Positions 50,903 to 64,000 of a stretch of DNA of 64,000 nt are shown one piece after another. Position numbers and translations under genes: made by a program. The DNA is from Candidatus Limnocylindria bacterium. GTDB lineage: Bacteria > Chloroflexota > Limnocylindria > P2-11E. Position 1 is the stretch's first letter, and each line of letters opens with the position of its first letter. The notes under the pieces are model-generated. The model had not been told where the DNA came from. It did no database searches and was given only the letters and a program-made list of their open reading frames with translations. Where the stretch lies: positions 24,448 to 88,447 of the forward strand of contig DATDNP010000201.1 in NCBI GenBank assembly GCA_036518215.1, given 5' to 3'.

Positions 50903-52048
50903 CTAGGCGCTCGGCGGTAGGCGATACCCGGCGAGCGCCGGCTCACCACGCAGCCTCGCGAATCCCGGCTTGATCGTGTCGTAGATGATCGACAGGCGTT
51001 CGTCGTATCCGACGAACGCCGACTTCATCGCGTTGATGGTCAGCTTCTCGACGTCGGCGAGGTCGAGCCCGAACGCCTCCGCGAGACGATGGAACTCGTC
51101 GGAGAGCGTCACGTCCGACATGAGCCGGTTGTCGGTGTTCACCGTGACGCGGAACCGCTGCGCGATGAGCTGCCGGATGGGATGCGTCGCGAGCGACGGG
51201 ACCGCGCCCGTATCGACGTTGCTCGACGGGCAGAGCTCGAGCGGGATGCGTTTGTCGCGGACGTATGTCGCGAGCGGGCCGAGCGCGACGACCGCGTCGC
51301 CTGCGAGCGTCATGTCCTCGATGAGGCGCACGCCATGGCCGATGCGATGAGCGCCGCAGACCTGGATCGCCTGCCAGATGGACGGCGGGCCGAAGCCCTC
51401 GCCCGCGTGGATGGTGATGTTGAAGTTCTCGCGATGGCACAGGTCGAACGCCTCGAGGTGCGCCTTCGGCGGATTCCCCGCCTCCTCTCCGGCGATGTCG
51501 AACCCGACGACCCCGCGGTCGCGGAAGGCGACCGCGAGCCGCGCCATCTCGACCGAGTCGGTGCGATCGCGCATCGCGCATACGATCTGCCGCAGGACGA
51601 TGCGGTACCGCCGCTCGGCCGCCGCGAACCCGCGCTCGACCGCCTCGACGACCCGCTCGAGCGTCATCCCGCGGGCGGTGCTGAACACCGGTGCGTATCG
51701 CACCTCGGCGTAGACGACGCCGTCGTGCGCGAGGTCCTCGCCGCACTCGAACGCGACGCGCTCGATCGCGTCCGGCGCCTGCATGACCGCGATCGTGTGC
51801 GCGAACCCCCGTAGATAGAGCGACAGGGAGCCGCTCGCCGCGCTCTCGTGGAACCACCGTCCGAGCTCGCCGGGATCGTTCGTCGGGAGCCCACGGTGAC
51901 CCTGCTCCCGCGCGAGCTCGACGATCGTCGCCGGACGGAGTCCGCCGTCGAGATGGTCGTGGAGCAGAACTTTCGGTGCGGCATGCAGCGTCTCGCGCGG
52001 GATCACGCCCAGATGATGCGCCAGGTGCGCCACCGTGCTGACTTTCAC
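50903..52048 (-). CDS. add: Adenosine deaminase
   Basis: PKVLLHDHLDGG..., HAGE and SLNTDDP-like motifs (VNTDN). Confidence 0.85.
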   Translation of the reverse strand: MKVSTVAHLAHHLGVIPRETLHAAPKVLLHDHLDGGLRPATIVELAREQGHRGLPTNDPGELGRWFHESAASGSLSLYLRGFAHTIAVMQAPDAIERVAFECGEDLAHDGVVYAEVRYAPVFSTARGMTLERVVEAVERGFAAAERRYRIVLRQIVCAMRDRTDSVEMARLAVAFRDRGVVGFDIAGEEAGNPPKAHLEAFDLCHRENFNITIHAGEGFGPPSIWQAIQVCGAHRIGHGVRLIEDMTLAGDAVVALGPLATYVRDKRIPLELCPSSNVDTGAVPSLATHPIRQLIAQRFRVTVNTDNRLMSDVTLSDEFHRLAEAFGLDLADVEKLTINAMKSAFVGYDERLSIIYDTIKPGFARLRGEPALAGYRLPPSA

Positions 52049-52080
52049 AGGCGTGCGGGAGGCCCCTACGATTCGGGGCC

Positions 52081-55000
52081 GTGGGGGATCAAGGGACGGC
52101 CCGGGACGAACGGCGCGTGGCCGAGCTCGAAGCCGAGCTCGCGCGGGCGCGCGAGCAGCAGGCCGCGATCGCCGGGGTGCTGCAGGCGATGGCGGGATCG
52201 CACGCCGACGAACAGGCCATCCTCGACGCGATCGCGACGAGCGCCGTCCGGTACTGCGGCGCGAACGACGCGCAGGTCTGGCTCGTCCGCGGCGACGAGC
52301 TCGAGCGCGCCGCGCATCACGGCCCGGTCGCGAACCTCGAGGGACGGATCCGGCTCGACCCGACGTCCGTCGCGGGACGCGCGATCGGCGAGCGCCGCAC
52401 GATCCACATCAGCGACGTCCTCGGTCCCGAGGGCGATGCGTATCCGCAGACACGCGCGCGCTTCGCGCAGATGGGCCACCGCGCGCTGCTCGTCGCCCCG
52501 GTCGTGCGCGACGGGGTCGCGATCGGCTCGCTCAACCTGCGGAAGCACGCGCCCGAGCCTTTCACCACGGAGCAGATCCAGCTGCTCGAGGCGTTCGCGG
52601 ACCAGGCCGCGATCGTGATCGAGAACGTTCGCCTGCACCGCGAGACGACAGCCTCACTCGAGCGGCAGACGGCGATCAGCGACCTCCTCGGCACGATCAG
52701 CCGATCGGCGTTCGACCTCGATGCCGTCCTCACCACGATCTGCGTCCGCGCCGTGGCGCTCGTCGGCGCACAGGGCGCGTCGATCGGGATCCGCGAGGGC
52801 GACGAGATCGTCATCATCGCGACCGGCGGCGGCCCGGCGACGCTCGGCAAAGGCGAGCGCTGGCTGATCGACGACACCACCGTCGGCGGACGTGCGTTCC
52901 TGGACGGTAAGCGCCACTACGCTCCCGATGTCACAAAAGACCCGGCGCTTCCCCAGGGAGGGGCGCAGACCCGTCTCGCGATCCCATTCGTGCGCGACGG
53001 CACCGTGACCGGTGTGCTCTTCACGGCACACCGCGAGGCGAACGCGTTCGACGAACGCGACATCCAGCTGCTCGAGGTGTTCGCCGATCAGGCGGCCATC
53101 GCGATGGAGAACGTACGTCTCTACCGCGAGACGAAGGAGTCGCTCGAGCAGCAGACCGCGATCAGCGAGATCCTGCAGGTGATCTCGAGCAGCCCGACCG
53201 ACATACAGCCTGTGCTCGACGCGATCGCGCGGAACGCGGCGCGTTACTGCCTCGCGGAAGACTGCGGCGTAGCGCTCATCCGTTCCGACGGCCTGCTCGA
53301 GCAGGTCGCGCAGTACGGTCCGATCGCGCTGGACATCGCGCCATGGCCGGTCGATCGCACCTCCGTGCGTGGCCGCGCGATCGTGGACCGGCAGGTGATC
53401 CACGTACCGGACATGGCCTCCGAGAGCGAGGCCGAGTACGCCATCGGCGTTCGGCGCTCACGCGAGCTTGGCCAACGCTCGATACTCGCCGCGCCGCTCC
53501 TGCGAGAGGGCAGGCCGCTCGGCGCGATCGGGCTGCGACGCACCGAGGTCCGGCCCTTCACGGACAAGCAGATCGCGCTGCTGCGCACGTTCGCAGATCA
53601 GGCCGCCATCGCGATCGAGAACGTCCGCCTGTTCAACGAGACGAAGCAGGCGCTCGAGCAGCAGACCGCGATCAGCGAAGTGCTGCGCGCGATCTCGAGC
53701 TCGCCGACCTCGTCGCAGCCGGTCCTCGATGTCGTGGCCACGAACGCCGTGCGCTTCTGCGAGGCCGAGCACGCCGTCGTGTGCCTCATCCGCGACGGGC
53801 TCCTGACGCCCGTCGCCCACGGCGGCCTCGACTGGGAGCCCGTGAAGCCGTTCGTCATCGACCGCACGACGGTGACCGGTCGCGCGGTCGTGGACCGACG
53901 GATCACTCACGTCGCAGACCTCTGGGCGCTCGAATCCGAGTATCCGCTCGGCTATGCGCAGGCGCGCGAGGGCAACGAACGCGCGCTCGTCGCCGCGCCG
54001 CTCATGCACCAGGATGAGGTCGTCGGCGCGATCATCCTCCGGCGGACGCACCCGACGCCGTTCACCGAACGACAGATCGATCTGCTCGCGACGTTCGCCG
54101 ATCAAGCCGCGATCGCCATCTCGAACGTGCGCCTCTTCAACGAGACGAAGGAAGCGCTCGAGCAGCAGACCGCGATCGCCGACATCCTGCGCGTCATCTC
54201 CAGCTCGCCGACCGACCTGCAGCCGGTCGCGGACGCGATCGCGAAGAGCGCGCTCCGTTTCGCCGGCGCAGAGGACGCATCGCTCGTCTTGGTGAAGGAC
54301 GGAGTCTTGGTGCCGGCCTCTCACCGCGGACCGATGGTGATCCCTTTGACGGTGCCGGCGGACCGGCGTTCGGTCACCGGTCGTGCGATCCTCGACCGCA
54401 AGACGGTCCACGTCGGGGACGTCATGGCGAACGAGGAATTTCCGCAGAGCACGGAGAACGCGGCCAGCAGCGGCCAGCGCGCCGTGCTCGCCGCGCCGCT
54501 CATGCGCGAGGGGACGGCCATCGGCGCGATCCTGCTCCGCAAGACCGAGCCAAAGCCGTTCACCGACGGGCAGGTCGCCCTCGTGGAGACGTTCGCATCG
54601 CAGGCCGTGATCGCGTTCGAGAACGTGCGTCTCTTCAATGAGACAAAGGTCGCTCTCGAGCGTCAAACGGCGACGGCGGAGGTCGTCAAGCTCATGAGCA
54701 GCACCGCGTTCGACCTCCGGCGCGTGCTCGACATCGTCATCGGACACGCGACGCAGCTCGCCCAAGCCGACGCTGGGTTCATCTATCAGGCCGACGGTGA
54801 GTACCTGCGCATGACGGCGGCGTACGGCGAGCACGCCGAGGCGATGCGCGAGTGGCAAGCGGAACATCCGATCCGCGGCGACTATCTCGGGTCGGCCACC
54901 GGTCGCGCCTTCGCGGAGCGCCGGACGGTGCACATCTCGGACGTCGAAGCCGACGCGAGCTACACGTATGGCGAGGCGAAGCAGCTCGGCGCTTTCAGGA

Positions 55001-56436
55001 CGCTCCTCTCCGTGCCGCTCGTGCGCGACGATCGAGCCGTCGGCACCTTCTCGCTGTGGCGCACGACGCCACGTCCATTCACGGCAGAGGAGATCGCGCT
55101 CGTCGAGAGCTTCGCCGATCAGGCGCTCATCGCGATCGAGAACGTTCGCCTCTTCGACGAGACGAAGGGCGCCCTCGAGCGACAGACGGCACTGGGCGAG
55201 ATCCTGCGCGTCATGGCCAGCTCGCCCACGAGCGAGCAGCCGGTCCTCGACGCCATCGCCCACAACGCCGTGCGCTTCTCGGGCGCCGAGGACGCGGCGG
55301 TCGCGCTCCGTGGCGAGAAGACATATCGCTTCGTCGCGCACGAGGGTGCGCTCCTACCCGACTTTGGCGTCGATCGGCCGCTCGACGAATCGACGGTGAG
55401 CGGTCGGGCGATGCTCCGAGCCGAGCTCGTCCACGTTCCGGATATCCGTGAGCGCGCCGCGGAGTTCCCGCGCAGCTACGAGTTCGCCCAGCGCAGCGGC
55501 CAGCGCGCGATGCTCTCGGTCCCGATGCTGCACGACGGCACGGCGATCGGCTCGATCGTGCTCCGCCGCAAGGACCCGCGCGCGTACTCCAACGAGGAGA
55601 TCGAGATCGCGCGCGCCTTCGCGGACCAGGCGGCGATCGCGATCGAGAACGTGCGGCTCTTCCACGAGATCCAGGAGAAGAGCGCACAGCTCGAGATCGC
55701 GAACCGCCACAAGAGCGAGTTCCTCGCGAACATGAGCCACGAGCTGCGGACGCCGCTGAACGCGATCATCGGGTTCAGCGAGGTGCTGTTGCAGGGCATC
55801 TTCGGCGACGTGAACGAGAAGCAGCGCGAGTATCTCGACGACGTGCTGTCGTCGGGAAAGCACCTGCTCTCGCTCATCAACGACATCCTCGACCTCTCGA
55901 AGATCGAAGCGGGCCGGATGGAGCTCGAGGTCTCGACGTTCTCTCTCACCGCCGCGCTCGAGAGCGGGCTCACGATCGTCCGCGAGCGGGCCGCGCGGCA
56001 CGGGATCGCGCTCGCAGCCGTGATCCCGGACGATCTTCCGACCGTGGACGCCGACGAGCGCAAGGTGAAGCAGATCCTCTACAACCTCCTCTCGAACGCC
56101 GTGAAGTTCACTCCCGACGGCGGACGCGTGGAGGTGCGTGTGCGTCGCGTAGGCGACGACGTCGAGATCGCCGTGAAGGACAACGGCATCGGGATCGCAC
56201 CCGCGGATCAGCCCAAGGTGTTCGAGGAGTTCCGGCAGGTCGGGCGCGAGCGGTCGCGCGAAGGCACCGGCCTCGGCCTCACGCTCACGAAGCGCTTCGT
56301 CGAGCTGCACGGCGGCCGGATCTGGCTCGCGAGCGAGGTCGGCGCGGGGAGCACGTTCACGTTCACCCTCCCGCTGCGCCGCGACGCCCGCCGCGGGGAC
56401 CCTGCCAGGGAGATCACGCCCGCGCAGCCATCCTGA
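52081..56436 (+). CDS. Soluble giant sensor histidine kinase with seven tandem GAF domains (1451 aa)
   Basis: No TM helix. Seven GAF units of about 180 aa, each followed by a near-identical linker (F(A/T)[30 protein letters not shown]). Then HisKA ([19 protein letters not shown]) and HATPase_c ([16 protein letters not shown]). Confidence 0.9.
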   Translation: MGDQGTARDERRVAELEAELARAREQQAAIAGVLQAMAGSHADEQAILDAIATSAVRYCGANDAQVWLVRGDELERAAHHGPVANLEGRIRLDPTSVAGRAIGERRTIHISDVLGPEGDAYPQTRARFAQMGHRALLVAPVVRDGVAIGSLNLRKHAPEPFTTEQIQLLEAFADQAAIVIENVRLHRETTASLERQTAISDLLGTISRSAFDLDAVLTTICVRAVALVGAQGASIGIREGDEIVIIATGGGPATLGKGERWLIDDTTVGGRAFLDGKRHYAPDVTKDPALPQGGAQTRLAIPFVRDGTVTGVLFTAHREANAFDERDIQLLEVFADQAAIAMENVRLYRETKESLEQQTAISEILQVISSSPTDIQPVLDAIARNAARYCLAEDCGVALIRSDGLLEQVAQYGPIALDIAPWPVDRTSVRGRAIVDRQVIHVPDMASESEAEYAIGVRRSRELGQRSILAAPLLREGRPLGAIGLRRTEVRPFTDKQIALLRTFADQAAIAIENVRLFNETKQALEQQTAISEVLRAISSSPTSSQPVLDVVATNAVRFCEAEHAVVCLIRDGLLTPVAHGGLDWEPVKPFVIDRTTVTGRAVVDRRITHVADLWALESEYPLGYAQAREGNERALVAAPLMHQDEVVGAIILRRTHPTPFTERQIDLLATFADQAAIAISNVRLFNETKEALEQQTAIADILRVISSSPTDLQPVADAIAKSALRFAGAEDASLVLVKDGVLVPASHRGPMVIPLTVPADRRSVTGRAILDRKTVHVGDVMANEEFPQSTENAASSGQRAVLAAPLMREGTAIGAILLRKTEPKPFTDGQVALVETFASQAVIAFENVRLFNETKVALERQTATAEVVKLMSSTAFDLRRVLDIVIGHATQLAQADAGFIYQADGEYLRMTAAYGEHAEAMREWQAEHPIRGDYLGSATGRAFAERRTVHISDVEADASYTYGEAKQLGAFRTLLSVPLVRDDRAVGTFSLWRTTPRPFTAEEIALVESFADQALIAIENVRLFDETKGALERQTALGEILRVMASSPTSEQPVLDAIAHNAVRFSGAEDAAVALRGEKTYRFVAHEGALLPDFGVDRPLDESTVSGRAMLRAELVHVPDIRERAAEFPRSYEFAQRSGQRAMLSVPMLHDGTAIGSIVLRRKDPRAYSNEEIEIARAFADQAAIAIENVRLFHEIQEKSAQLEIANRHKSEFLANMSHELRTPLNAIIGFSEVLLQGIFGDVNEKQREYLDDVLSSGKHLLSLINDILDLSKIEAGRMELEVSTFSLTAALESGLTIVRERAARHGIALAAVIPDDLPTVDADERKVKQILYNLLSNAVKFTPDGGRVEVRVRRVGDDVEIAVKDNGIGIAPADQPKVFEEFRQVGRERSREGTGLGLTLTKRFVELHGGRIWLASEVGAGSTFTFTLPLRRDARRGDPAREITPAQPS
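55690..56380 (+). repeat. Duplicated kinase-core segment (near-identical at DNA level to 59115-59800)
   Basis: The HisKA-HATPase_c regions of the two adjacent kinases share long identical nucleotide runs, e.g. aaccg(c/t)cacaagagcgagttcctcgcgaacatgagccacgagctgcg. This points to a recent tandem duplication. Confidence 0.7.
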
Positions 56437-56523
56437 GAACGGTCGCGGCCCGCCGATCTCGCGAGCGTTACGGCGGCGCCTGACGCGATACAGGCGGGCC
56501 TAGCATGCGGGCGGAGGGAGCGG

Positions 56524-59500
56524 GTGGACCTCGTTCGCCGAGCTGAATGGCTCGTGGAACGACCGTGGCGACTCGTCGCCATCGTGGCCGTCGCAGTCGC
56601 GCTGCCGATCCTTGTCCTCGGTGAGATATCGAACGAACAGACGCGCGCCCGGGACGTATTGGCGCGCGCCGAGGCGGGCGAACGCGATGCGGCAGCGGCG
56701 ACCGAAGTGCTCGCGACCCGACTGACCTCGATCGAACGAGCCGTCGTAACGACGGGCTCCCGGGATCCGCTGGGCGTTCCCACGCCGCTCATCAACGCCG
56801 TCGAGCGACTGGATAGCGAGGCCATCGAGGCGGAGCTCGCTGCGGTGTGGCCGTATCGCGATCCGTCGGTGATCCGGCTGGCGGTCGTCGATCCGGACGC
56901 GCACGTCATCGGGCAGACGCCGCAGCCTCTCAGTGGTGTTCGCACCGTTGCGTCCTATAGCAGCGCGTTCGCACTGAGCGCGCCGGAAGCGAGCGACGTC
57001 CATGTCGACGCGGGCGACCCTCGCCTCGAGATCGGGACGCCCATCGAAGGAGCCGAACGGCGCGGGTATCGCCTCATCGCTACGGTGAGTCTCCGCGCGC
57101 TCGCCTCCGACACACTCGCGCCGCTCGCGTTCGTGTATCCGGACGTGTATCTCATCGACACGCGCGGGCGTCTTGCGCTGCGCGGCTCGCGTTTGCTCGC
57201 GGACGAACAACTCTTGCGCGATGTGACCGCCGCCACGGCTGTGATGCCCGGCGCATCGAGCGTGATCGATCCGATCGATCCTTCGTATCGAATACTCGCG
57301 ACCGCGCGGATGCCCGAATTCGGTTGGTCGATCGTCGTGCTCGACCCGGGCGTCTCCAACGCGACCCTGGATGCCAGCCTTGCGCAGCAGCGTGCACTGC
57401 GGATCGGCCTTGTTGTCGTGCTTCTTGTCGGCTCGGTGATCGTGGGCAACACGTCGAGCGCGACGATCCGGCGCCGTCGCGAGGCACAAGAGGCTCTCGA
57501 ACAGCAGGTCGCGACGAGCGCGGTGCTGCGTGCCATCAGCGCGACGCATGACGACGTGCAGGCCGTGCTGCAGTGTGTCGTGGATGAGGCGCTGCGCCTC
57601 TGTGACGCGGAGAGCGCGACCTTCTATCGGAGCGACGGCGAGGATCGCGTGCTCATGGCTGTCGCAGGTCGCCACCCGGAGTCTGTCCCCATCGGCGAGC
57701 GCATCGCGAACACGCCGACGACGCTGCTCAGCTTGGCCCTTCGAGAAGGGAAAACGTTCCACACGCGCGACATGTCGAGTGAGGAGACGCGCCGGCTGGT
57801 CCGGCCCGACGAAACGCAGGAGGAATGGCAGCGCACGATCCTCGCATCGTGGCCAGGACTGTCCCGGCTCGCGGTTCCCGTGATGCAGGATGGCAAGGCG
57901 GTCGGTGTCATCCGCGTCGATCGCCGTGAGCGCGGCGGCTTCACACCGCAGCAGATCAAGCTCATCGAGTCCTTCGCGGCGCAGGCCGCGATCGCGATGG
58001 AAAACGTTCGTCTCTTCAATGAGACGCGAGAGGCGCTCGATCGACAGACCGCCATTAGTGAAGTCCTGAAGACGATCTCGCAGAGCGTCTTCCAACTGGA
58101 CTCGACGCTCCAGACCGTCGTCGAGAACGCGGCACGACTGTGCGACGCGGACGCAGCCTGGATGGTCGAATGGGCCGGTGCGGGCTACACGGGCCTCGCC
58201 CGATACGCGCGCACCCCAGAGATAGCCGCGCTGCTCGAAAGGGCACGTAAGTCGCAGCCCGGCGTCGTCGCTCCAGCCGAACGGCATCGCATCGCCGGCC
58301 GGATGTTCCTCGAACGTCGCACGATCGGCGTGGCTGACATAGCGAACGAGCCGGAGCTCTCAGGGTCATGGACGGCCCTCGATATCGGTGCGCGGTCCGT
58401 GCTCGGCGTACCTGTCGTGAGCGATGGCGTGCCTCTCGCGGGAATCGTGCTTGCGCGGGTTACCGTACGCCCGTTCTCCAAGAGCGAGACGGAACTCGTC
58501 GAGACGTTCGCCGATCAGGCGGCGATCGCCATCAAGAACGTCCGTCTCTTCACCGGTACGAAGGAGGCGCTCGAGCAGCAGACCGCGGTGAGCGATGTCC
58601 TCAAGACGATCAGCCGGAGCGTGTTCGAGCTGGCGCCGACCCTACGCACGGTCGTCGAGAACGCGGCACGCATCTGCGACGCTGATGCCGGCTGGATGAC
58701 TCGCACCTCTCTGTCGGGACACAGCTCGGGAGCGCGCTACGGCCGCACGCCCGAGATCGCACGCGCCGTCGAGCTCGCGTATGAGAGGTCCGTCGGGGAC
58801 GTCTCCGGGCCCGATCCCAGTAGGATCGGGGACCGCGTCTACCTCGAACGGCGGCCGATCGTCGTCGACGACATCGCGGCCGACGCCACCCTCGCGAACT
58901 CCTACATCGCGCACGGGATCAAGTCACGCTCCGTGCTTGCGGTGCCGGTCCTTGGCGACGACGCCGTGCTCGGCGCGATCATCCTCGCTCGTCTGACGGT
59001 GAGACCGTTCTCTGAACGCGAAACGCAGCTCGTTCAGACGTTCGCTGACCAAGCCGCGATCGCGATCCAGAACGTTCGTCTCTTCAATGAGGTCGAAGAC
59101 AAGTCGCGGCAGCTCGAGGCCGCCAACCGTCACAAGAGCGAGTTCCTCGCGAACATGAGCCACGAGCTGCGAACGCCGCTCAACGCGATCATCGGCTTCA
59201 GCGAGGTGCTTCTCCAAGGGCTCTTCGGTGACATCAACGCAAAGCAGCGCGAATACCTCGACGACGTGCTGACCTCCGGGAAGCATCTGCTGTCGCTCAT
59301 CAACGACATCCTCGACCTCTCTAAGGTCGAGGCGGGCCGCATGGAGCTGGAGCTGTCGCGCTTCTCGGTCGCGACGACGGTCGATACCTCGCTCACGATC
59401 ATCCGGGAGCGTGCTGCGCGTCACAGCATCGCACTGAGGGCCGTTCTCCCGAACGATCTGCCCGAGATCGAGGCCGACGAGCGGAAGGTCCGCCAGATCC

Positions 59501-59826
59501 TCTTCAACCTCCTGTCGAACGCCGTGAAGTTCACGCCGGATGGCGGCACAATCAGCCTTCACGTGCGCCGCGAGGCCGGCGGGTTGTGCTTCGCGGTGTC
59601 GGACACGGGGATCGGGATCGCGCCGGAGGATCAGGTGAAGGTGTTCGAAGAATTCCGTCAGGTCGGCCGCGAGCGCGCGCGCGAAGGGACCGGGCTGGGC
59701 TTGACGCTCACAAAGCGCTTCGTCGAGCTCCATGGCGGCCGGATCTGGGTCGAGAGCGAGACGGGAAAGGGCAGCACGTTCTCGTTCACCCTTCCGCTGA
59801 CGCAGCCGTCGGCGGCGCCGGCATGA
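56524..59826 (+). CDS. Membrane sensor histidine kinase with an extracytoplasmic sensor domain, three GAF domains and a kinase core (1100 aa)
   Basis: TM helix at about aa 15-35 and again at about aa 290-312, with a ~250-aa extracytoplasmic region between them. Then 3x GAF with the same linker motif and a HisKA-HATPase_c core paralogous to 52081..56436. Confidence 0.9.
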
Positions 59827-60200
59827 GCGACCTCGTTCTCATCATCGAGGACAACGAGAAGAACATGAAGCTCGCGCGCGACCTCCTGCGCTTTCACGGC
59901 TTCGACACGATCGAGGCGACGAGCGCGGAGGATGGCCTCGCGCTCGCGCGGGAGCGACAGCCGCGGCTCGTCCTCATGGACATCCAGCTTCCCGGGATGG
60001 ACGGCGTCACAGCGCTGGGGCGATTGAGGTCGGACGGCACGACCGCCGCGATCCCCGTCGTCGCGATGACGGCCTCTGTGATGAAGGAGGACCGCGAGCG
60101 CTTCGACAAGGCGGGCTTCGACGGGTTCCTCATGAAGCCGATCGACGTGCGCGCGTTCCCGCAGCAGGTGCGCGACGCGATCGCGCGCGGCCGCGCGTGA
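59823..60200 (+). CDS. Single-domain response regulator (CheY-like receiver)
   Basis: ATGA overlap with the kinase stop. [11 protein letters not shown]...[13 protein letters not shown]...KPID. 125 aa with no output domain. Confidence 0.85.
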
Positions 60201-61237
60201 GCGATCGCCCGAAGATCCTCGCCGTCGACGACACCCCGGAGAACCTCCGGCTCCTCGACGCGCTCCTCGCGCCGCAGGGCTACGAGCTCGTGCCGGCGTC
60301 CTCCGGACGCGAGGCGCTCGCGCTCGTGCCGGAGCGGAGGCCGGACCTGCTCCTCGTCGACCTCGTGATGCCGGAGATGAACGGCTTCGAGGTCACCAAG
60401 GCCGTCCGCGCCGACGACACCTGGAAGCATCTGCCGATCATCATCATCACCGCGACGGGCGGCGCCGATCTCGTTCGGGCGCTCGAGGCGGGCGCGGACG
60501 ACTACGTGTCGAAGCCGTTCGACAAGAACGAGCTGCTCGCGCGCGTCCGGTCGCTCATCCGCGTGAAGAACTACTACGACACCGTGCAGCGGCAGCGCGA
60601 GGAGCTGTCGCGCTTCTTCTCGCCCGCGATCGCGCACCTCATCACGAGCGACGAAGGGAAGCGCATGCTCGACGGCCATCGTCGCGCCGTCACGGTCGTC
60701 TTCTGCGACCTGCGCGGCTTCACGGCGTTCTCGGAGACGGTGGAACCCGAGGAGGTGCTGGGCGTGCTGCGCGAGTACCACCGCGCGATGGGCGAGCTCA
60801 TCGCAGCGCACGGCGGCACGCTCGAGCACTTCGAGGGCGACGGCTTCATGGTGTTCTTCAACGATCCGATCGAAACGCCTCAGCACGAGCATGTCGCCGT
60901 GCGTATGGCCGTGGCGATGCGAGACCGCTTCGACGAGCTCGCCGCGCCGTGGCGCAGGAAGGGCTACGACCTCGCGTTCGGTGTCGGCGTTGCGGTGGGC
61001 TACGCGACGCTCGGACGCATCGGCTATGAGGGCCGCTACGACTACGCCGCGATCGGCAACGTGACGATCCACGCGTCGCGCCTCATGGCACGAGCGCAGG
61101 GCGGCGAGATCCTCATCACGCAGCGCCTGAACGCCGCGATCGAGGACGAGTTCGAGACGGCGGCCGTCGGCGAGCTCGAGCTGAAGGGCGTCACACGACC
61201 GGTCGCGGCGTTCAACGTCATTGGGAGGCGGAGATGA
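60197..61237 (+). CDS. Response regulator with a class III adenylate/guanylate cyclase (CHD) output domain
   Basis: GTGA overlap. REC (ILAVDDTPEN...LLLVDLVMPEMNG...KPFDKNEL). CHD (VTVVFCDLRGFTAFSE...GTLEHFEGDGFMVFFNDP...GVGVAVGYATLGRIG). Confidence 0.85.
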   Translation: MSDRPKILAVDDTPENLRLLDALLAPQGYELVPASSGREALALVPERRPDLLLVDLVMPEMNGFEVTKAVRADDTWKHLPIIIITATGGADLVRALEAGADDYVSKPFDKNELLARVRSLIRVKNYYDTVQRQREELSRFFSPAIAHLITSDEGKRMLDGHRRAVTVVFCDLRGFTAFSETVEPEEVLGVLREYHRAMGELIAAHGGTLEHFEGDGFMVFFNDPIETPQHEHVAVRMAVAMRDRFDELAAPWRRKGYDLAFGVGVAVGYATLGRIGYEGRYDYAAIGNVTIHASRLMARAQGGEILITQRLNAAIEDEFETAAVGELELKGVTRPVAAFNVIGRRR

Positions 61238-63366
61238 GCGACATCTACGAGACGATCAGTACGCGGCTCGATTACGGCTCGTTCGTCCCGCGGCCCATCG
61301 GCGATGTCGAGCGCGCGGACCTGAAGCGGCGGGACGGCACGATGTACACCGTCCTGAAGAACCCGCACGGCGACCGTGCCGCCGGCCTCTACATCCGGCT
61401 CGAGCCGGATGACGTCGCGCTCTTCGAGCTGATGGACGGCAACCGCACGATCCAAGACATCCTTGTCAATTACCTGGCGACGCACGGCGTGCTCGCCGTC
61501 GACCGCCTCGCGCGCCTCACGGCCGCGCTGTCGGCGAACGGCTTCTTCGGCGACGAGCGCCCGCGCTTCTACGAGCGCCTCGCCATGAACCGCCAGCTCC
61601 GCGATCCGCTCGTTCGTCTTTCGCTGTCGCTGCGGCGGCTCATCACGTGGGACATCGCGCGCTGGTCGAACGCCGATTCGCTCGTCCAGCGCGTGTACCG
61701 CGCCGGAGCGTGGCTGGCGTTCACGCCCGTCGGCGCGGCGCTCATCGCGGTCCTCTGCGTCGCCGGGATCGTCGCGTGGGTCCGCGAGGTCAGCGTCGGT
61801 CGCCACACGCTCGTCACGCTCGACGGGTCATTCGTGCTCGGGATCGTCGCCCTCATCCTCCTCCAGGTGCTATCGATCTCTGTGCACGAGGCAGGGCACG
61901 CGCTCGCGATCGCGCATTACGGGCGTCGCGTCCGACGCCTCGGTCTCGCGGTCTATTACCTCTTCCCGTGCGTCTACGTTGACAGCACCGACATGACGAT
62001 GGCATCACGAAAGGCGCGCATCGTCGTGTCCCTCGCCGGTCCGGTGGGCGGTCTCACGGTGAGCGCACTGTGCGCATTCGTGGCGATCGCCGACGGCGGA
62101 GTCCTCGGCAGCATCGCCTTCAAAGCATCGTCGCTCTTCCTTTTCCAATTCGCGCTCAACCTCATGCCGATCCTCGAGCTCGACGGCTACTACATCCTCG
62201 TCGACCTGCTCGACGCTCCGCTCCTCCGACAGCGCGCGCTCGCGTTCGCGCGGGGCGGCGTCATGCGGAAGCTTCGACGGCGCGAGCGGTGGTCGCCGTC
62301 GGAGATCGGGCTCGGCGTGTACGGCCTTCTCGCGATCGCCACCTCCTTCCTGATGATCGGCTTGTCGCTCGCGCTCTGGGAGTCACGCGTCTCGATCGCG
62401 GCACGCGAGCTGCTCGCAGCGGGGCCGCTCGGAGCGCTCGCGCTGGCGCTCCTCGTGCTCGTGTTCATCGGTCCACTCATCGTGGCGCTCACGATCCGCG
62501 TGGTCGGCTGGGGCAGGACCTTCGCGAAGGGGCGCGCACGGCGCGTACGCCGGCGTGAGCAGCAGGCGCTCGTCGAACGCGCACGCATCCTCTCGCGCGT
62601 GCCGTTCCTCGCGAGTCTCGCAGGGAATGCGCTCATCGCGATCGCGTCACACCTGAGCGAGGAGCGTGTGGACGCGAATACGAACGTCGTGACGATCGGC
62701 GAGCCCGGCCAGCGTTTCTACGTCGTGCGCTCGGGCCGTCTCGAGGTGCTCGACGCGAGCGGGCGCGTCATCGGCACGCTCGCGCCGGGTGACGGCTTCG
62801 GAGAGCTCGCGCTGCTCGACCACCGGCCGCGGACGGCGACGGTGCGCGCGACCGAGCCGAGCGAGCTCTGGTCCCTCGACCGCGGCCACTTCGAGCGTTG
62901 GATCCGCGAGCGGTACGAGATCGCCGCGCGGATCCGCGCGTCGGCTGAGGAGCGCGACATGCTCGCGAAGCTGCCCTTCTTCAAGGGACTGGAGCCTGCC
63001 GAGCTCGACCGGATCGTGCCGCATCTCAAGCTGACTCGCGTCGCCGCGGGCGAGGCGGTCTTCCGCGAAGGCGATCCCGGCGACCGCTACTACGTCATTC
63101 GCGAGGGCGAGGCGGACGTGAGCGTCGGCGGGAGCCTCGTGGCCCACCTCGGACCGGGCAGCGGCTTCGGGGAGCTCGCGCTGCTTTTCGGGAAGCCGCG
63201 TACAGCCACGGTGACCGCTACGAAGGATCTTGTCCTGGCCTCCCTCGGGCGCAGCGAGTTCGGCTGGCTCGTACGGGAATCAGGTGAGACGATGGGTGAG
63301 TTCAAGACACGAACGGCGCATTATGTCGGTTCCGCCGGCCTCGGGACGGCGGTGAGGGGGGCTTAG
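61234..63366 (+). CDS. Site-2 protease (peptidase M50) fused to two C-terminal cyclic-nucleotide-binding domains
   Basis: ATGA overlap. M50 zinc motif (HEAGHAL) in a TM helix and the second S2P motif (NLMPILELDG), with multiple TM helices. Then 2x CNB with GFGELALL...RTATVRA and GFGELALLFGKPRTATVTA. Confidence 0.85.
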   Translation: MSDIYETISTRLDYGSFVPRPIGDVERADLKRRDGTMYTVLKNPHGDRAAGLYIRLEPDDVALFELMDGNRTIQDILVNYLATHGVLAVDRLARLTAALSANGFFGDERPRFYERLAMNRQLRDPLVRLSLSLRRLITWDIARWSNADSLVQRVYRAGAWLAFTPVGAALIAVLCVAGIVAWVREVSVGRHTLVTLDGSFVLGIVALILLQVLSISVHEAGHALAIAHYGRRVRRLGLAVYYLFPCVYVDSTDMTMASRKARIVVSLAGPVGGLTVSALCAFVAIADGGVLGSIAFKASSLFLFQFALNLMPILELDGYYILVDLLDAPLLRQRALAFARGGVMRKLRRRERWSPSEIGLGVYGLLAIATSFLMIGLSLALWESRVSIAARELLAAGPLGALALALLVLVFIGPLIVALTIRVVGWGRTFAKGRARRVRRREQQALVERARILSRVPFLASLAGNALIAIASHLSEERVDANTNVVTIGEPGQRFYVVRSGRLEVLDASGRVIGTLAPGDGFGELALLDHRPRTATVRATEPSELWSLDRGHFERWIRERYEIAARIRASAEERDMLAKLPFFKGLEPAELDRIVPHLKLTRVAAGEAVFREGDPGDRYYVIREGEADVSVGGSLVAHLGPGSGFGELALLFGKPRTATVTATKDLVLASLGRSEFGWLVRESGETMGEFKTRTAHYVGSAGLGTAVRGA

Positions 63367-63367
63367 G

Positions 63368-63583
63368 GTGGACTGCTGGGTCTGCGAGCGCACGGCGCTC
63401 GGGGCGTGCCGGTTCTGCGGCCGCGGCACCTGCCGCGACCACGCGCGCACGCACCCCTTCGTCATCGAAGTGTTCCGCGGACGCAAGCACGAGACGCTGC
63501 GGGCGCTCGTCGTCGAGGACGCGCTCCACTGTGGCGTGTGCAAGCCCCGCAGCGAGCCCGTCGAGCTCCCCGAGCTCGAGTGA
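63368..63583 (+). CDS. Small Cys-rich zinc-ribbon-like protein
   Basis: GTG 1 nt after the protease stop. 71 aa with CWVCE..13..CRFCGRGTC..25..HCGVCK and an acidic tail. This is a predicted Cys4-type zinc ribbon. Confidence 0.5.
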   Translation: MDCWVCERTALGACRFCGRGTCRDHARTHPFVIEVFRGRKHETLRALVVEDALHCGVCKPRSEPVELPELE

Positions 63584-63703
63584 GGAGGCCTACCTGAGAG
63601 CTACTGTCATCACGATCACACAGGGGCAGCCATGGCGATGGACGTATGGGGAGCGTGGCGGGGCCAGAGTTCCGTCAACAGGCGATGGGAGGCGAAACAG
63701 AGA

Positions 63704-64000
63704 TGTCCAAGGAAGCTCTCGCGAAGGTGGTCCAGCGGGCGATCAGTGACGCGGCGTTCCGCCGTCAGATCTCGAGCGATCCGACGGGTGCGCTGCGCGG
63801 CTTCGACCTGACGTCGGACGAGACCGCGGCCATCCGCGCGGCGGACGCTGGCAAGCTCAGCGCGCTCGGCATCGACCAGCGCATGAGCAAGGCGTTCACC
63901 CTCGGCGGGAACGCGGACTCTCCGAGCATGGTCGGCGGCACCGACATCAACACGCTCGGCAGCGCGATCACGACCGGAAGCGCGGGCACGGCCGGCGGCG
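63704..64000 (+). CDS. Protein with a Nif11/NHLP-like N-terminal leader domain (5' part; paralog of 32241..32828)
   Basis: MSKEALAKVVQRAISDAAFRRQISSDPTGALRGFDLTSDETAAIRAADAGKLSALGIDQRMSKAFTLGG is about 60% identical to the N-terminus of the 32241 gene. It runs off the window end. Confidence 0.5.

What the first reader, a model, noticed from the sequence alone, without database searches (positions are those of the whole stretch)
52081..59826. Tandem paralogous multi-GAF histidine kinases with a recently duplicated kinase core and highly regular GAF plus signalling-helix repeats
The first kinase is soluble with seven GAF units. The second is membrane-anchored with an extracytoplasmic domain and three GAF units. 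The HisKA/HATPase_c segments (about 55690-56380 and 59115-59800) are near-identical at the nucleotide level. The inter-GAF linker [32 protein letters not shown] recurs almost verbatim ten times, and looks like an S-helix connector. This implies ongoing duplication or gene conversion. It also implies a chain of small-molecule binding modules feeding one output.
Basis: seen in the sequence. Interest (0 to 1): 0.6.

Follow-up and report, generated by a model that had tools for sequence, protein, structure and literature searches.

The report
Two old poly-GAF sensor kinase paralogues
Two neighbouring bacterial sensor kinase genes carry chains of seven and three GAF sensor domains joined by a conserved helix; they are real but are ordinary members of a very large uncharacterised family, and they are old copies rather than a recent duplication.

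Summary
The anatomy is real. HK1 (52081-56436) is soluble, with 7 GAF units plus HisKA/HATPase_c. HK2 (56524-59826) has two membrane segments, a ~255-aa outside domain, 3 GAF units and the same kinase core. The [15 protein letters not shown]… motif occurs 10 times.

The evolutionary reading is wrong. The kinase cores are 78.7% identical in DNA, with 61% identity at third codon positions, dS ~0.7 and a longest exact run of 41 nt. Linker synonymous sites are scrambled (pS 0.48), so protein-level selection keeps the motif, not gene conversion. An assembly artefact is excluded.

Syntenic soil contigs carry one HK1 orthologue with 6 or 8 units and no HK2. HK2's core lies outside the HK1-orthologue clade.

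The unit belongs to a huge family: 53,301 cluster representatives, with up to 17 matched stretches per protein. AlphaFold2 predicts one continuous 46-residue helix between units. Across 268 relatives the connector length is 9, 16 or 23 residues, in exact heptad steps. This fits a coiled-coil spine. It is not a canonical S-helix, because the ERT signature is absent.

Pocket-side elements are hypervariable and the ligands are unknown.

The operon continues with a response regulator, a receiver-cyclase and a cNMP-binding M50 protease.

The parts
52081..56436 (+). HK1: soluble poly-GAF histidine kinase, 1451 aa. NCBI calls it from codon 13, i.e. from 52117 (1439 aa).
   Evidence: ORF. Pfam finds 7 GAF stretches plus HisKA and HATPase_c. 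It is 100% identical to P0001, 'GAF domain-containing protein [Candidatus Limnocylindria bacterium]'. No hydrophobic segment reaches the membrane-segment cut-off.
52081..55662 (+). HK1 GAF array, seven units: A1 52081-52638, A2 52639-53124, A3 53125-53634, A4 53635-54138, A5 54139-54636, A6 54637-55155, A7 55156-55662. Each unit ends in [15 protein letters not shown]; these motifs start at 52594, 53080, 53590, 54094, 54592, 55111 and 55618.
   Evidence: Units A1-A5 have one-to-one orthologues (71-96% identity) in P0011 and P0042. A6 and A7 do not.
55663..56436 (+). HK1 kinase core: DHp/HisKA about 55711-55914 and HATPase_c about 56053-56379.
   Evidence: Pfam. The H, N, G1, F and G2 boxes are visible in the translation. 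It is 88-90% identical to the cores of P0011 and P0042.
56524..59826 (+). HK2: membrane-anchored poly-GAF histidine kinase, 1100 aa. GTG start, preceded by GGAGGGAG.
56572..57459 (+). HK2 sensor module: TM1 (aa 17-35), a ~255-aa extracytoplasmic region, and TM2 (aa 291-312).
   Evidence: Hydropathy. The only homologue found is P0121 (29% identity), a TM-dCache_1-like-TM kinase without GAF domains. The AlphaFold2 model is unusable, with pLDDT 41.6.
57481..59085 (+). HK2 GAF array, three units: B1 57481-58017, B2 58018-58551, B3 58552-59085. Linker motifs start at 57973, 58507 and 59041.
   Evidence: B2 and B3 are 58% identical to each other. Their best matches elsewhere are mostly the last unit before the kinase in other proteins.
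59086..59826 (+). HK2 kinase core (DHp plus HATPase_c).
   Evidence: The DHp is 93% identical to HK1's, with helix 1 after the His identical. The ATPase domain is only 68-69% identical.
59823..60200 (+). Single-domain response regulator, 125 aa. Its start overlaps the HK2 stop (ATGA).
   Evidence: Pfam Response_reg. Sequence and junction. Orthologues in L001-L003 are 89-92% identical.
60197..61237 (+). Receiver plus class III nucleotidyl cyclase, 346 aa, with a 4-bp overlap upstream.
   Evidence: Pfam Response_reg plus Guanylate_cyc. The cassette GAFn-HK | RR | REC-cyclase recurs in L001-L003, L006 and L008. The motif pattern points the same way in L005, L009-L011 and L014, where ORFs were not inspected.
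61234..63366 (+). M50-type intramembrane metalloprotease with two C-terminal cNMP-binding domains, 710 aa. It is the likely reader of the cyclase product.
   Evidence: Pfam. HEAGH and NLMPILELDG motifs. Hydropathy. Conserved in L001-L003.

Best explanation
These are two anciently diverged paralogous sensor histidine kinases. They come from a Candidatus Limnocylindria (Chloroflexota) genome assembled from a metagenome.

Both belong to a very large, uncharacterised family. In that family one particular GAF subtype is strung together in arrays of about 1 to 17 units in front of a HisKA/HATPase_c core.

Each unit is a GAF fold. Its last helix runs without a break through a short connector into the first helix of the next unit, giving a 46-residue helix in the model. 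Connector length in the family is quantised in heptads (9, 16 or 23 residues). Successive GAFs are therefore held in a fixed phase on what is most likely a parallel dimeric coiled-coil spine ending in the DHp helix.

Purifying selection on this spine explains the near-verbatim linker. Recent duplication and gene conversion do not. The pocket side of the units is hypervariable.

Inferred mechanism: individual units sense different, unknown ligands or states. They bias the spine conformation, and so the kinase/phosphatase balance.

HK2 adds an extracytoplasmic input. Its DHp is almost identical to HK1's, so both kinases probably act on the same partners: the stand-alone receiver and the receiver-cyclase encoded immediately downstream. 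The cyclase product would then be read by the cNMP-binding M50 protease.

Shown here: architecture, divergence, synteny, family size, continuous helix, heptad quantisation. Inferred: dimeric spine, ligand binding, shared partner, the cascade.
For: - Architecture.
- Old divergence of the cores and absence of conversion.
- Syntenic loci L001-L003 read ADA | one poly-GAF kinase (8 or 6 units) | RR | REC-cyclase | M50-cNMP, with no HK2.
- Core identities place HK2 outside the HK1/P0011/P0042 clade. Flanking genes are 85-93% identical.
- Family size: 53,301 representatives at E<=1e-3 and 5,856 at E<=1e-30, with up to 17 matched stretches in one protein. The 120 best full-length hits carry 4-13 linkers each.
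- Di-GAF AlphaFold2 model: pLDDT 91.3, with a continuous helix over residues 147-192. Best structural matches are the tandem GAFs of CyaB2 and PDE2/5/6 and the phytochrome GAF-PHY module.
- Connector lengths: 9 (1160 cases), 16 (700), 23 (8) and 15 (1).
- The connector is near-invariant, with the same heptad position occupied by Q4, N11, T/L18 and Q25.
- Entropy by element: helix a5 0.92, connector plus a1 1.23, against a4 3.33 and the b2-a3 loop 3.05.
- Unit types are conserved across proteins. A3 is 85-96% identical to units in P0003 and P0261, and P0003 is only 49% identical to HK1 overall.
- DHp is 93% identical between HK1 and HK2, against 68-69% for the ATPase domain.
- Overlapping stop and start codons join HK2, RR, the cyclase and M50.
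- Heptad-periodic linkers as a mark of coiled-coil signal transmission: PMC6798134.
Against:
- The variable pocket side is equally compatible with a lack of constraint.
- The dimeric coiled coil is inferred from periodicity and from analogy to PDE2A and phytochromes. Only a monomer was modelled. Prokaryotic CyaB2 tandem GAFs dimerise antiparallel (PMC1592074).
- The one seam of large hydrophobic residues is accompanied by a polar seam, so the coiled coil would be weak.
- The regexes used to cut units constrain 14 positions of helix a5 and the 9 positions of the QQTA motif. This inflates the apparent conservation there. Lengths can only be counted where both anchor motifs are found.
- A shared response regulator is inferred from DHp identity only.
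- The substrate of the cyclase (ATP or GTP) was not determined.
Confidence: 0.7

Rival explanations
1. One reading: the kinase core was duplicated recently, and the linkers and cores are being homogenised by ongoing duplication or gene conversion.
For: - Same gene order and orientation.
- The ungapped in-frame comparison of the cores is 75% identical in protein; local alignment of the cores gives 78%.
- One 60-nt window is 95% identical and includes a 41-nt exact run at the H-box.
- The 15-codon start of the linker ([15 protein letters not shown]) averages 82% DNA identity across the ten copies; the full 38-codon linker averages 72%.
Against: - Third-codon-position identity is 61%, dS is about 0.7 and pS is flat along the core.
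- Linker pS is 0.48, and same-codon use is barely above the codon-usage expectation.
- HK2's core is an outgroup to HK1 and its orthologues.
- Units A3, A4 and A5 each have their own orthologue in P0011 and P0042, so their duplication predates the speciation.
- The identical H-box run encodes the invariant [12 protein letters not shown] catalytic motif.
Confidence: 0.03
2. Assembly artefact: mis-joined or collapsed repeat copies created the arrays.
For: The source is a metagenome-assembled genome and the protein architecture is repetitive. Read data were not available.
Against: - The longest exact repeat in the 7.7-kb region is 41 nt, and copies are 60-84% identical.
- Both reading frames are intact and all catalytic motifs are present.
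- Independent assemblies from other soils carry the same unit order A1-A5.
- Thousands of similar proteins exist.
Confidence: 0.02
3. The GAF array is mainly structural: a rigid spacer, oligomerisation scaffold or physical sensor (for temperature or crowding). Most units bind no small molecule, and only the spine matters.
For: - The spine helices are by far the most conserved elements.
- The pocket-side elements are the least conserved and carry insertions and deletions.
- Unit number varies freely among orthologues and cassettes, from 1 to 8.
Against: - Some unit types are conserved across their full length in otherwise diverged proteins. A3 is 85-96% identical to units in other arrays, which argues for unit-specific function.
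- Several non-spine residues are near-invariant: GR in helix a3, H..D in strand b3, and R..L..P in strand b4.
Confidence: 0.2
4. Cofactor- or redox-based sensing: the units carry a bilin, haem or reactive thiol, like cyanobacteriochrome arrays or DosS/DosT.
For: - One Cys per unit occurs at the end of helix a2 in 73% of 2,177 units, although total Cys content is 0.6%.
- There are remote profile hits to DevS/DosS GAF domains and to cyanobacteriochrome GAFs.
- Phytochrome GAF-PHY modules are among the best fold matches.
Against: - The conserved Cys is on the a1/a2/a5 side, opposite the canonical pocket (topology from PMC4411481).
- No Cys-His pair and no conserved Cys occurs in the pocket-side helices of any unit.
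- Hits to cyanobacteriochromes cover only the C-terminal strands and helix a5.
- Four of the ten units here lack the Cys.
Confidence: 0.08
5. cNMP feedback: the GAF units bind the cyclic nucleotide made by the downstream cyclase, as in CyaB1/CyaB2 and PDE2.
For: - The operon encodes a class III cyclase and a cNMP-binding protein.
- The best PDB match by both profile and fold is the cAMP-binding CyaB2 tandem GAF.
Against: - In the alignment to CyaB2, the NKFDE signature of cNMP-binding GAFs aligns to R-R-F-Q-I, so only 1 of 5 positions is kept (signature from PMC4411481).
- Identity to those structures is 10-18%.
Confidence: 0.05

Closest known systems
Tandem GAF-A/GAF-B regulatory modules of cyanobacterial adenylyl cyclase CyaB2 and of phosphodiesterases PDE2A, PDE5 and PDE6 (PDB 1ykd, 1mc0, 3ibj, 3lfv)
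   Same: Two GAF folds joined by one long helix that continues from the last helix of one domain into the next. These are the best fold matches (E 1e-17 to 1e-15) and the best profile match (1ykd, E 6e-13).
   Different: Only 10-18% identity. The NKFDE cNMP signature is not kept. Those modules have two domains, against 3-17 here. Their output is a cyclase or phosphodiesterase, not a histidine kinase. This family has an almost invariant connector of quantised length.
Phytochrome and cyanobacteriochrome photoreceptor kinases (GAF-PHY helical spine; multi-GAF arrays)
   Same: GAF-fold modules sit on a continuous helical spine that feeds a DHp/HATPase_c kinase. Fold matches include 8w26, 4bwi and 5lly with TM-scores of 0.64-0.70. 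In the papers found, multi-GAF arrays are discussed almost only for this group.
   Different: There is no bilin-binding Cys or Cys-His in the pocket-side helices. Sequence hits are limited to the C-terminal strands and helix a5. The host is a Limnocylindria bacterium, and family members come from soil Rokubacteria, Binatia, Acidobacteria and Rhizobiales.
Signalling helix (S-helix) of Anantharaman, Balaji and Aravind 2006 (PMC1592074)
   Same: A helical segment of about 40 residues between two signalling domains, with heptad periodicity and conserved polar residues at a core position.
   Different: The defining ERT signature is absent from all ten linkers. The paper itself treats inter-GAF linkers as a separate class.
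Heptad-periodic coiled-coil linkers of PAS/LOV and bacteriophytochrome histidine kinases (reviewed in PMC6798134)
   Same: Discrete linker lengths differing by 7 residues, a continuous helix into the DHp, and the same signature between consecutive sensor modules (compared).
   Different: The sensor fold here is GAF, not PAS/LOV. The connector sequence is far more conserved, and it repeats up to 17 times in one chain.
DosS/DosT (DevS) GAF-GAF histidine kinases of Mycobacterium tuberculosis
   Same: Soluble tandem-GAF sensor kinases. Remote profile hits to their GAF-A domain at E about 1e-7 to 1e-9.
   Different: Those proteins bind haem in the GAF-A pocket and have two GAFs. No evidence for haem ligation was obtained here.

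Membership tests
GAF domain (Pfam PF01590 / PF13185 / PF13492) | Profile match above the curated cut-off. | tested here: met
   HK1 has 7 stretches at 360 bits and HK2 has 3 stretches at 164 bits, against cut-offs of 22-29 bits.
GAF domain (Pfam PF01590 / PF13185 / PF13492) | GAF fold: a central antiparallel sheet with helices on both sides. | tested here: met
   The AlphaFold2 model has pLDDT 91.3. Each unit reads a1-a2-b1-b2-a3-b3-a4-b4-b5-a5. The top fold matches are all GAF modules.
HisKA-type (class I) sensor histidine kinase | HisKA dimerisation/phosphoacceptor domain with an H-box, plus HATPase_c with N, G1, F and G2 boxes. | tested here: met
   HisKA scores 86 and 80 bits; HATPase_c scores 120 and 114 bits. 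[20 protein letters not shown](N/T)GIGI, FEEFRQV and GTGLGL are present in both proteins.
HisKA-type (class I) sensor histidine kinase | Autophosphorylation and phosphotransfer to a cognate receiver. | not testable with these tools
   Only adjacency is available: RR and REC-cyclase lie directly downstream with overlapping stop and start codons.
S-helix (PMC1592074) | A helical segment of about 40 residues between two signalling domains, with heptad periodicity. | tested here: met
   A 46-residue continuous helix. Connector lengths are 9, 16 or 23.
S-helix (PMC1592074) | ERT signature at positions c, d and e of the central heptad. | tested here: not met
   None of the ten linkers contains ERT. 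The nearest strings are RET, NET and ERQT. Definition.
cNMP-binding GAF (PDE / CyaB type) | NKFDE signature. | tested here: not met
   The profile alignment to CyaB2 (1ykd) puts R-R-F-Q-I opposite N-K-F-D-E. Signature as described in PMC4411481.
Cyanobacteriochrome / phytochrome GAF | Conserved chromophore-binding Cys (Cys-His) on the pocket side of the GAF. | tested here: not met
   The family consensus shows no conserved Cys or Cys-His in a3, a4 or their loops. The only conserved Cys is at the end of a2. The position of the canonical Cys is recalled from general knowledge and was not checked against a structure here.
dCache_1 extracytoplasmic sensor (HK2 N-terminus) | Pfam PF02743 match above the gathering score, or a Cache fold. 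| tested here: inconclusive
   HK2 scores 11 bits (E 0.25) and its only homologue P0121 scores 34 bits, against a cut-off of 45. The AlphaFold2 model has pLDDT 41.6 and is unusable.
Any curated NCBIfam kinase family | Score above the curated cut-off. | tested here: not met
   All matches cover only the kinase core and fall far below their cut-offs, for example HrmK at 242 against 725.

The most novel reading that the evidence does not exclude
The poly-GAF family to which these genes belong may be an undescribed class of combinatorial sensors. On this reading, a limited vocabulary of conserved GAF unit types is concatenated in strict heptad register on one continuous dimeric coiled-coil spine. 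Each type has its own pocket and most carry one conserved Cys on the spine side. One kinase would then integrate many chemical or redox inputs, and evolution would re-programme it by inserting or deleting whole units. This window would add a rare case in which a membrane sensor kinase acquired three such units and was placed in the same operon, so that outside and inside signals converge on one receiver/cyclase/cNMP output.
Probability: 0.2. Interest if true: 0.65.

Novelty: new member of a known kind. Interest (0 to 1): 0.35.

Why it matters
For this window the result is mainly a correction. There is no recent duplication, no gene conversion and no assembly problem.

The wider point is that a very abundant family has no curated model above cut-off, and no description turned up in the three full-text searches I ran. 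It has more than 50,000 cluster representatives and arrays of up to 17 units. The family offers an unusually clean natural experiment on how signals travel along coiled-coil spines. Connector length is quantised in exact heptads. Unit number varies between close orthologues. The same kinase/receiver/cyclase cassette occurs with 1 to 8 units in organisms that include cultured Rhizobium and Mesorhizobium, where it could be tested genetically.

Tried and rejected
- Exact-sequence look-ups of HK1, the M50 protein, the adenosine deaminase and P0001 found no contig.
- A genome-collection scan with the HK2 N-terminus found no relative.
- The protein search with the HK2 N-terminus found one homologue, and HK2 itself is not in that database.
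- The third and last protein search, with the P0121 sensor domain, returned nothing. It did not even return P0121, probably because Ala-rich words swamped the candidate list.
- AlphaFold2 on the HK2 sensor region with a two-sequence alignment gave pLDDT 41.6, so I ran no fold search on it.
- MAFFT on the window's own di-GAF segments slipped by one unit in three rows. I replaced that alignment with 25 di-GAF segments cut from homologues.
- Tandem Repeats Finder sees no array because the copies are too diverged.
- The second genome scan, with the receiver-cyclase, found no close relative of this genome (best 54% identity), but it did reveal the conserved cassette.
- The CyaB2 structure paper (PMC549502) is not held.
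- Promoter and terminator scans gave nothing above chance. One promoter-like site at 52044-52072 lies just upstream of HK1, and there is no terminator between the genes.
- Considered and rejected: the S-helix label, cNMP-binding GAF, bilin-binding GAF, recent duplication, and assembly artefact (see the membership tests and rivals).
Full report
**1. What is in the sequence**

Two long + strand ORFs occupy exactly the reported interval: 52081-56436 (1451 aa, HK1) and 56524-59826 (1100 aa, HK2).

Pfam finds seven GAF stretches plus HisKA and HATPase_c in HK1, and three GAF stretches plus the same core in HK2. HK1 has no hydrophobic segment reaching the 1.8 Kyte-Doolittle cut-off I used for membrane segments (maximum 1.70). 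HK2 has two, at aa 17-35 and 291-312, and they enclose about 255 residues.

The motif F[AS][ADS]QA.I...N[VI]RL occurs 7+3 times. A looser protein pattern finds it nowhere else in the window in any frame.

The two kinase-proximal copies match only over the first 15-17 residues and then continue into the DHp helix.

The descriptive part of the finding is therefore correct.

**2. What is not correct**

*The kinase cores.* They are not near-identical in DNA.
- Region 55690-56380 against the copy 3423 nt downstream is 78.7% identical.
- The following figures come from a 266-codon in-frame comparison (55618-56415 against +3423), which runs past HK2's stop.
  - Identity by codon position is 80, 87 and 61%.
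  - Nei-Gojobori pS is 0.46 (dS about 0.7) and pN is 0.16.
  - pS is flat at 0.38-0.52 along the core.
- The one 60-nt window at 95% contains the 41-nt longest exact repeat of the whole 7.7-kb region. That run encodes the invariant H-box.

*The GAF units.* They are 28-58% identical in protein and 60-75% in DNA. Tandem Repeats Finder reports nothing.

*The linkers.*
- Mean pS between linker copies is 0.48.
- Where two linkers have the same residue, they use the same codon in 66% of pairs, against 58% expected from codon usage alone.

The linker is therefore kept by selection on the protein, not by gene conversion. With no exact repeat longer than 41 nt, repeat collapse or mis-joining during assembly is not a realistic explanation.

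**3. Origin and relatives**

HK1 is identical to P0001, annotated 'GAF domain-containing protein [Candidatus Limnocylindria bacterium]' from an 89-kb contig. That class belongs to the phylum Chloroflexota.

Two close homologues, P0011 (69% identity) and P0042 (72%), lie on soil-metagenome contigs that are syntenic with the window. The order there is:
- adenosine deaminase, divergent;
- one poly-GAF kinase;
- a 125-aa receiver;
- a 346-aa receiver-cyclase;
- a 710-aa M50 protease with cNMP-binding domains.

Flanking orthologues are 85-93% identical to the window's. There is no HK2 in those loci.

Kinase-core identities are as follows:

| Comparison | Identity |
|---|---|
| HK1 vs P0011 | 90% |
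| HK1 vs P0042 | 88% |
| HK2 vs HK1 | 78% |
| HK2 vs P0011 | 79% |
| HK2 vs P0042 | 77% |

HK2 therefore split from the HK1 lineage before these organisms diverged. It is an extra gene between HK1 and the receiver in this genome only.

The HK2 sensor region has a single detectable homologue, P0121 (29% identity). P0121 has the same TM-sensor-TM module fused directly to the same type of kinase core, without any GAF. HK2 thus looks like such a kinase with three GAF units placed between the second membrane segment and the DHp. The sensor fold stays unresolved. dCache_1 scores are below threshold and the AlphaFold2 model is unusable.

**4. Unit turnover**

Units A1-A5 have one-to-one orthologues in P0011 and P0042, at 71-96% identity. 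Their duplications are therefore older than the speciation.

The kinase-proximal part differs between the three proteins:

| Protein | Unit composition | Units |
|---|---|---|
| P0042 | A1-A5 + one 178-aa unit | 6 |
| P0011 | A1-A5 + an A6-like unit + another unit + the same 178-aa unit | 8 |
| HK1 | A1-A5 + A6 + A7 | 7 |

- A6's best relatives (72-77%) and A7's (70%) are units of other proteins.
- B2-like and B3-like 178-aa units are mostly the last unit before the kinase in other arrays.
- A3 is 85-96% identical to units of P0003 and P0261. P0003 is only 49% identical to HK1 overall.

So arrays are remodelled by whole units on the timescale of about 10% protein divergence, and unit types are conserved entities. 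Nothing in this window is recent.

**5. The family**

A single unit with its connectors finds 53,301 cluster representatives at E<=1e-3, 24,859 at 1e-10 and 5,856 at 1e-30. Up to 17 matched stretches occur in one 3673-aa protein.

The 120 best full-length hits carry 4-13 linkers, with a mode of 11. Their sources name Rokubacteria, Binatia, Acidoferrales and Chloroflexota. Seven units is middling.

No NCBIfam model reaches its cut-off. By sequence, solved structures are only remote relatives. Three full-text searches found multi-GAF arrays discussed almost only for cyanobacteriochromes and nothing on this family. Those searches cover only the held library.

**6. The connector**

I modelled units A3-A4 with AlphaFold2, using 25 di-GAF segments cut from homologues. 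The model has pLDDT 91.3. It shows two GAF folds joined by one uninterrupted helix over residues 147-192. That helix comprises a5 of the first unit, the connector, and a1 of the second.

The best fold matches are the tandem GAFs of CyaB2 and PDE2/5/6 and the GAF-PHY modules of phytochromes. All are built on such a helical spine.

In 268 family proteins I measured the distance from the ...N.RL motif to the following QQTA motif. It is 9 residues in 1160 cases, 16 in 700, 23 in 8 and 15 in 1. These are exact heptad steps.

From the last GAF to the phospho-accepting His the distance is 26 in 167 of 183 cases, including both window genes.

The connector is almost invariant. One heptad position reads Q4, N11, T/L18, Q25. 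The neighbouring positions read I7, L14, A21, T/I28, I35 and F1, A8, F15, L22.

Heptad-quantised linkers are an accepted signature of continuous coiled coils that carry signals in sensor kinases, including between consecutive sensor modules (PMC6798134).

The linker is not an S-helix in the strict sense. That family is defined by an ERT signature, which is absent here, and its authors set inter-GAF linkers apart. It works like one without being a member.

**7. Conserved chassis, variable face**

I aligned 700 randomly sampled units to A3 and compared column entropy by structural element:

| Element | Mean entropy (bits) |
|---|---|
| a5 | 0.92 |
| connector + a1 | 1.23 |
| a2 | 1.66 |
| a3 | 2.53 |
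| b2-a3 loop | 3.05 |
| a4 | 3.33 |

The last two elements also carry insertions and deletions. Helices a3 and a4 and the adjoining loops are the elements that cover the ligand pocket in known GAFs (PMC4411481).

Caveat: 14 positions of a5 were constrained by the regex used to cut the units.

The NKFDE signature of cNMP-binding GAFs aligns to R-R-F-Q-I. Feedback by the operon's own cyclic nucleotide is therefore unlikely.

There is no Cys-His or conserved Cys on the pocket side. One Cys at the end of a2 is present in 73% of 2,177 units, although these proteins contain only 0.6% Cys. Six of the ten units here keep it. Its role is unexplained.

**8. Likely working**

Shown:
- Both kinases have all catalytic motifs.
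- HK2, the receiver, the receiver-cyclase and the M50 gene are joined by overlapping stop and start codons.
- No terminator-like site lies between the genes.
- The cassette GAFn-kinase | receiver | receiver-cyclase is confirmed by ORF inspection in a Chloroflexota MAG (L006) and Rhizobium sp. LjRoot258 (L008).
- The linker and H-box pattern points the same way in L005, L009-L011 and L014. These come from another Limnocylindria MAG, Mesorhizobium caraganae, a Mesorhizobium MAG, an alphaproteobacterial MAG and a Caldimonas MAG.
- Across these cassettes the linker count is 1-6 per kinase, a minimum where the contig ends, against 6-8 units in L001-L003.

Inferred:
- Units bias the conformation of a dimeric spine that ends in the DHp, and so set the kinase/phosphatase balance.
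- The DHp is 93% identical between HK1 and HK2, with helix 1 after the His identical, whereas the ATPase domain is only 68-69% identical. The two kinases therefore probably share partners. Cytoplasmic inputs (HK1) and an extracytoplasmic input (HK2) would converge on the receiver and the receiver-cyclase.
- The cyclase product would be read by the cNMP-binding M50 protease.

**9. Verdict**

The anatomy is real and correctly described. The evolutionary interpretation (recent duplication, conversion, possible artefact) is refuted. The S-helix label fails its membership test, though the functional analogy holds.

The genes are new members of a known kind (GAF-containing HisKA sensor kinases) within a very abundant and uncharacterised poly-GAF family. 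Interest for this locus is modest. The family-level regularities are the more interesting outcome: heptad-quantised connectors, conserved unit types, one Cys per unit, and a conserved cassette that also occurs in cultured rhizobia.

Noticed in passing
window 61234-63366 (+): An M50/S2P-type intramembrane metalloprotease (HEAGH and NLMPILELDG motifs, about 5 hydrophobic segments) is fused to two C-terminal cNMP-binding domains. Its best NCBIfam match is 'daptide biosynthesis intramembrane metalloprotease', at 122 bits against a cut-off of 300. It is conserved in L001-L003. A cyclic-nucleotide-gated intramembrane protease would be unusual.
   Followed up: partly
window 63368-63580 (+) and 63703-64000 (+, runs off the window): Directly after the M50 gene lies a small Cys-rich ORF (CWVCERTALGACRFCGRGTC...HCGVCKP). 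After it comes a gene with a RiPP-leader-like N-terminus (MSKEALAKVVQRAISDAAFRRQ...) and a Gly/Thr/Asp-rich tail. Its orthologue in L002/L003 carries Pfam PF14407 (Frankia_peptide). Together with the protease, this hints at cNMP-controlled peptide maturation.
   Followed up: partly
window units A1, A3, A4, B1, B2, B3 (e.g. Cys in RYCLAED at about 53245-53250); family-wide: One conserved Cys sits at the end of helix a2 (motif A.RLC.A) in 73% of 2,177 GAF units from 268 family proteins. Overall Cys content in these proteins is only 0.6%. The Cys lies on the helix side, opposite the canonical pocket. Its function is unknown.
   Followed up: partly
L008 7347-11519 (Rhizobium sp. LjRoot258); L009-L011, L006, L014: ORF inspection confirms the cassette in L008 and L006: a GAF-array kinase, a ~121-125-aa receiver and a receiver-cyclase, with 4-bp overlaps. 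The linker and H-box pattern suggests the same in Mesorhizobium, Caldimonas and other Chloroflexota. Linker counts there are 1-6 per kinase, so the system could be tested in culturable strains.
   Followed up: partly
window 50903-52048 (-): An adenosine deaminase gene lies divergent from HK1, 32 nt from its start. It keeps the same position in all three syntenic loci (L001-L003). Whether it is functionally linked to the cNMP cascade or merely adjacent is unknown.
   Followed up: no
L001-L003, downstream of the M50 gene (e.g. L002 13029-13709; L001 13467-14429): Further cNMP-related genes follow in the syntenic contigs: a Crp-family regulator in all three, and another cNMP-binding protein in L001. 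The locus looks like a cyclic-nucleotide signalling island that extends beyond the end of this window.
   Followed up: no
family proteins P0001-P0268: The 16-residue connector variant inserts exactly one heptad, with its own conserved residues (L18, R21, N22, L25; consensus ELQARNRELTEAL). It accounts for 700 of 1,869 connectors counted. All connectors in this window are the short 9-residue form.
   Followed up: yes
window 60197-61237 (+): At the position before the conserved GD of the cyclase domain, the sequence reads HFEGDG. This fits neither of the substrate-specifying residues I recall for ATP (Lys) or GTP (Glu) in the usual register. The nucleotide made by this cyclase is therefore uncertain. 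This rests on recalled motifs and was not tested.
   Followed up: no
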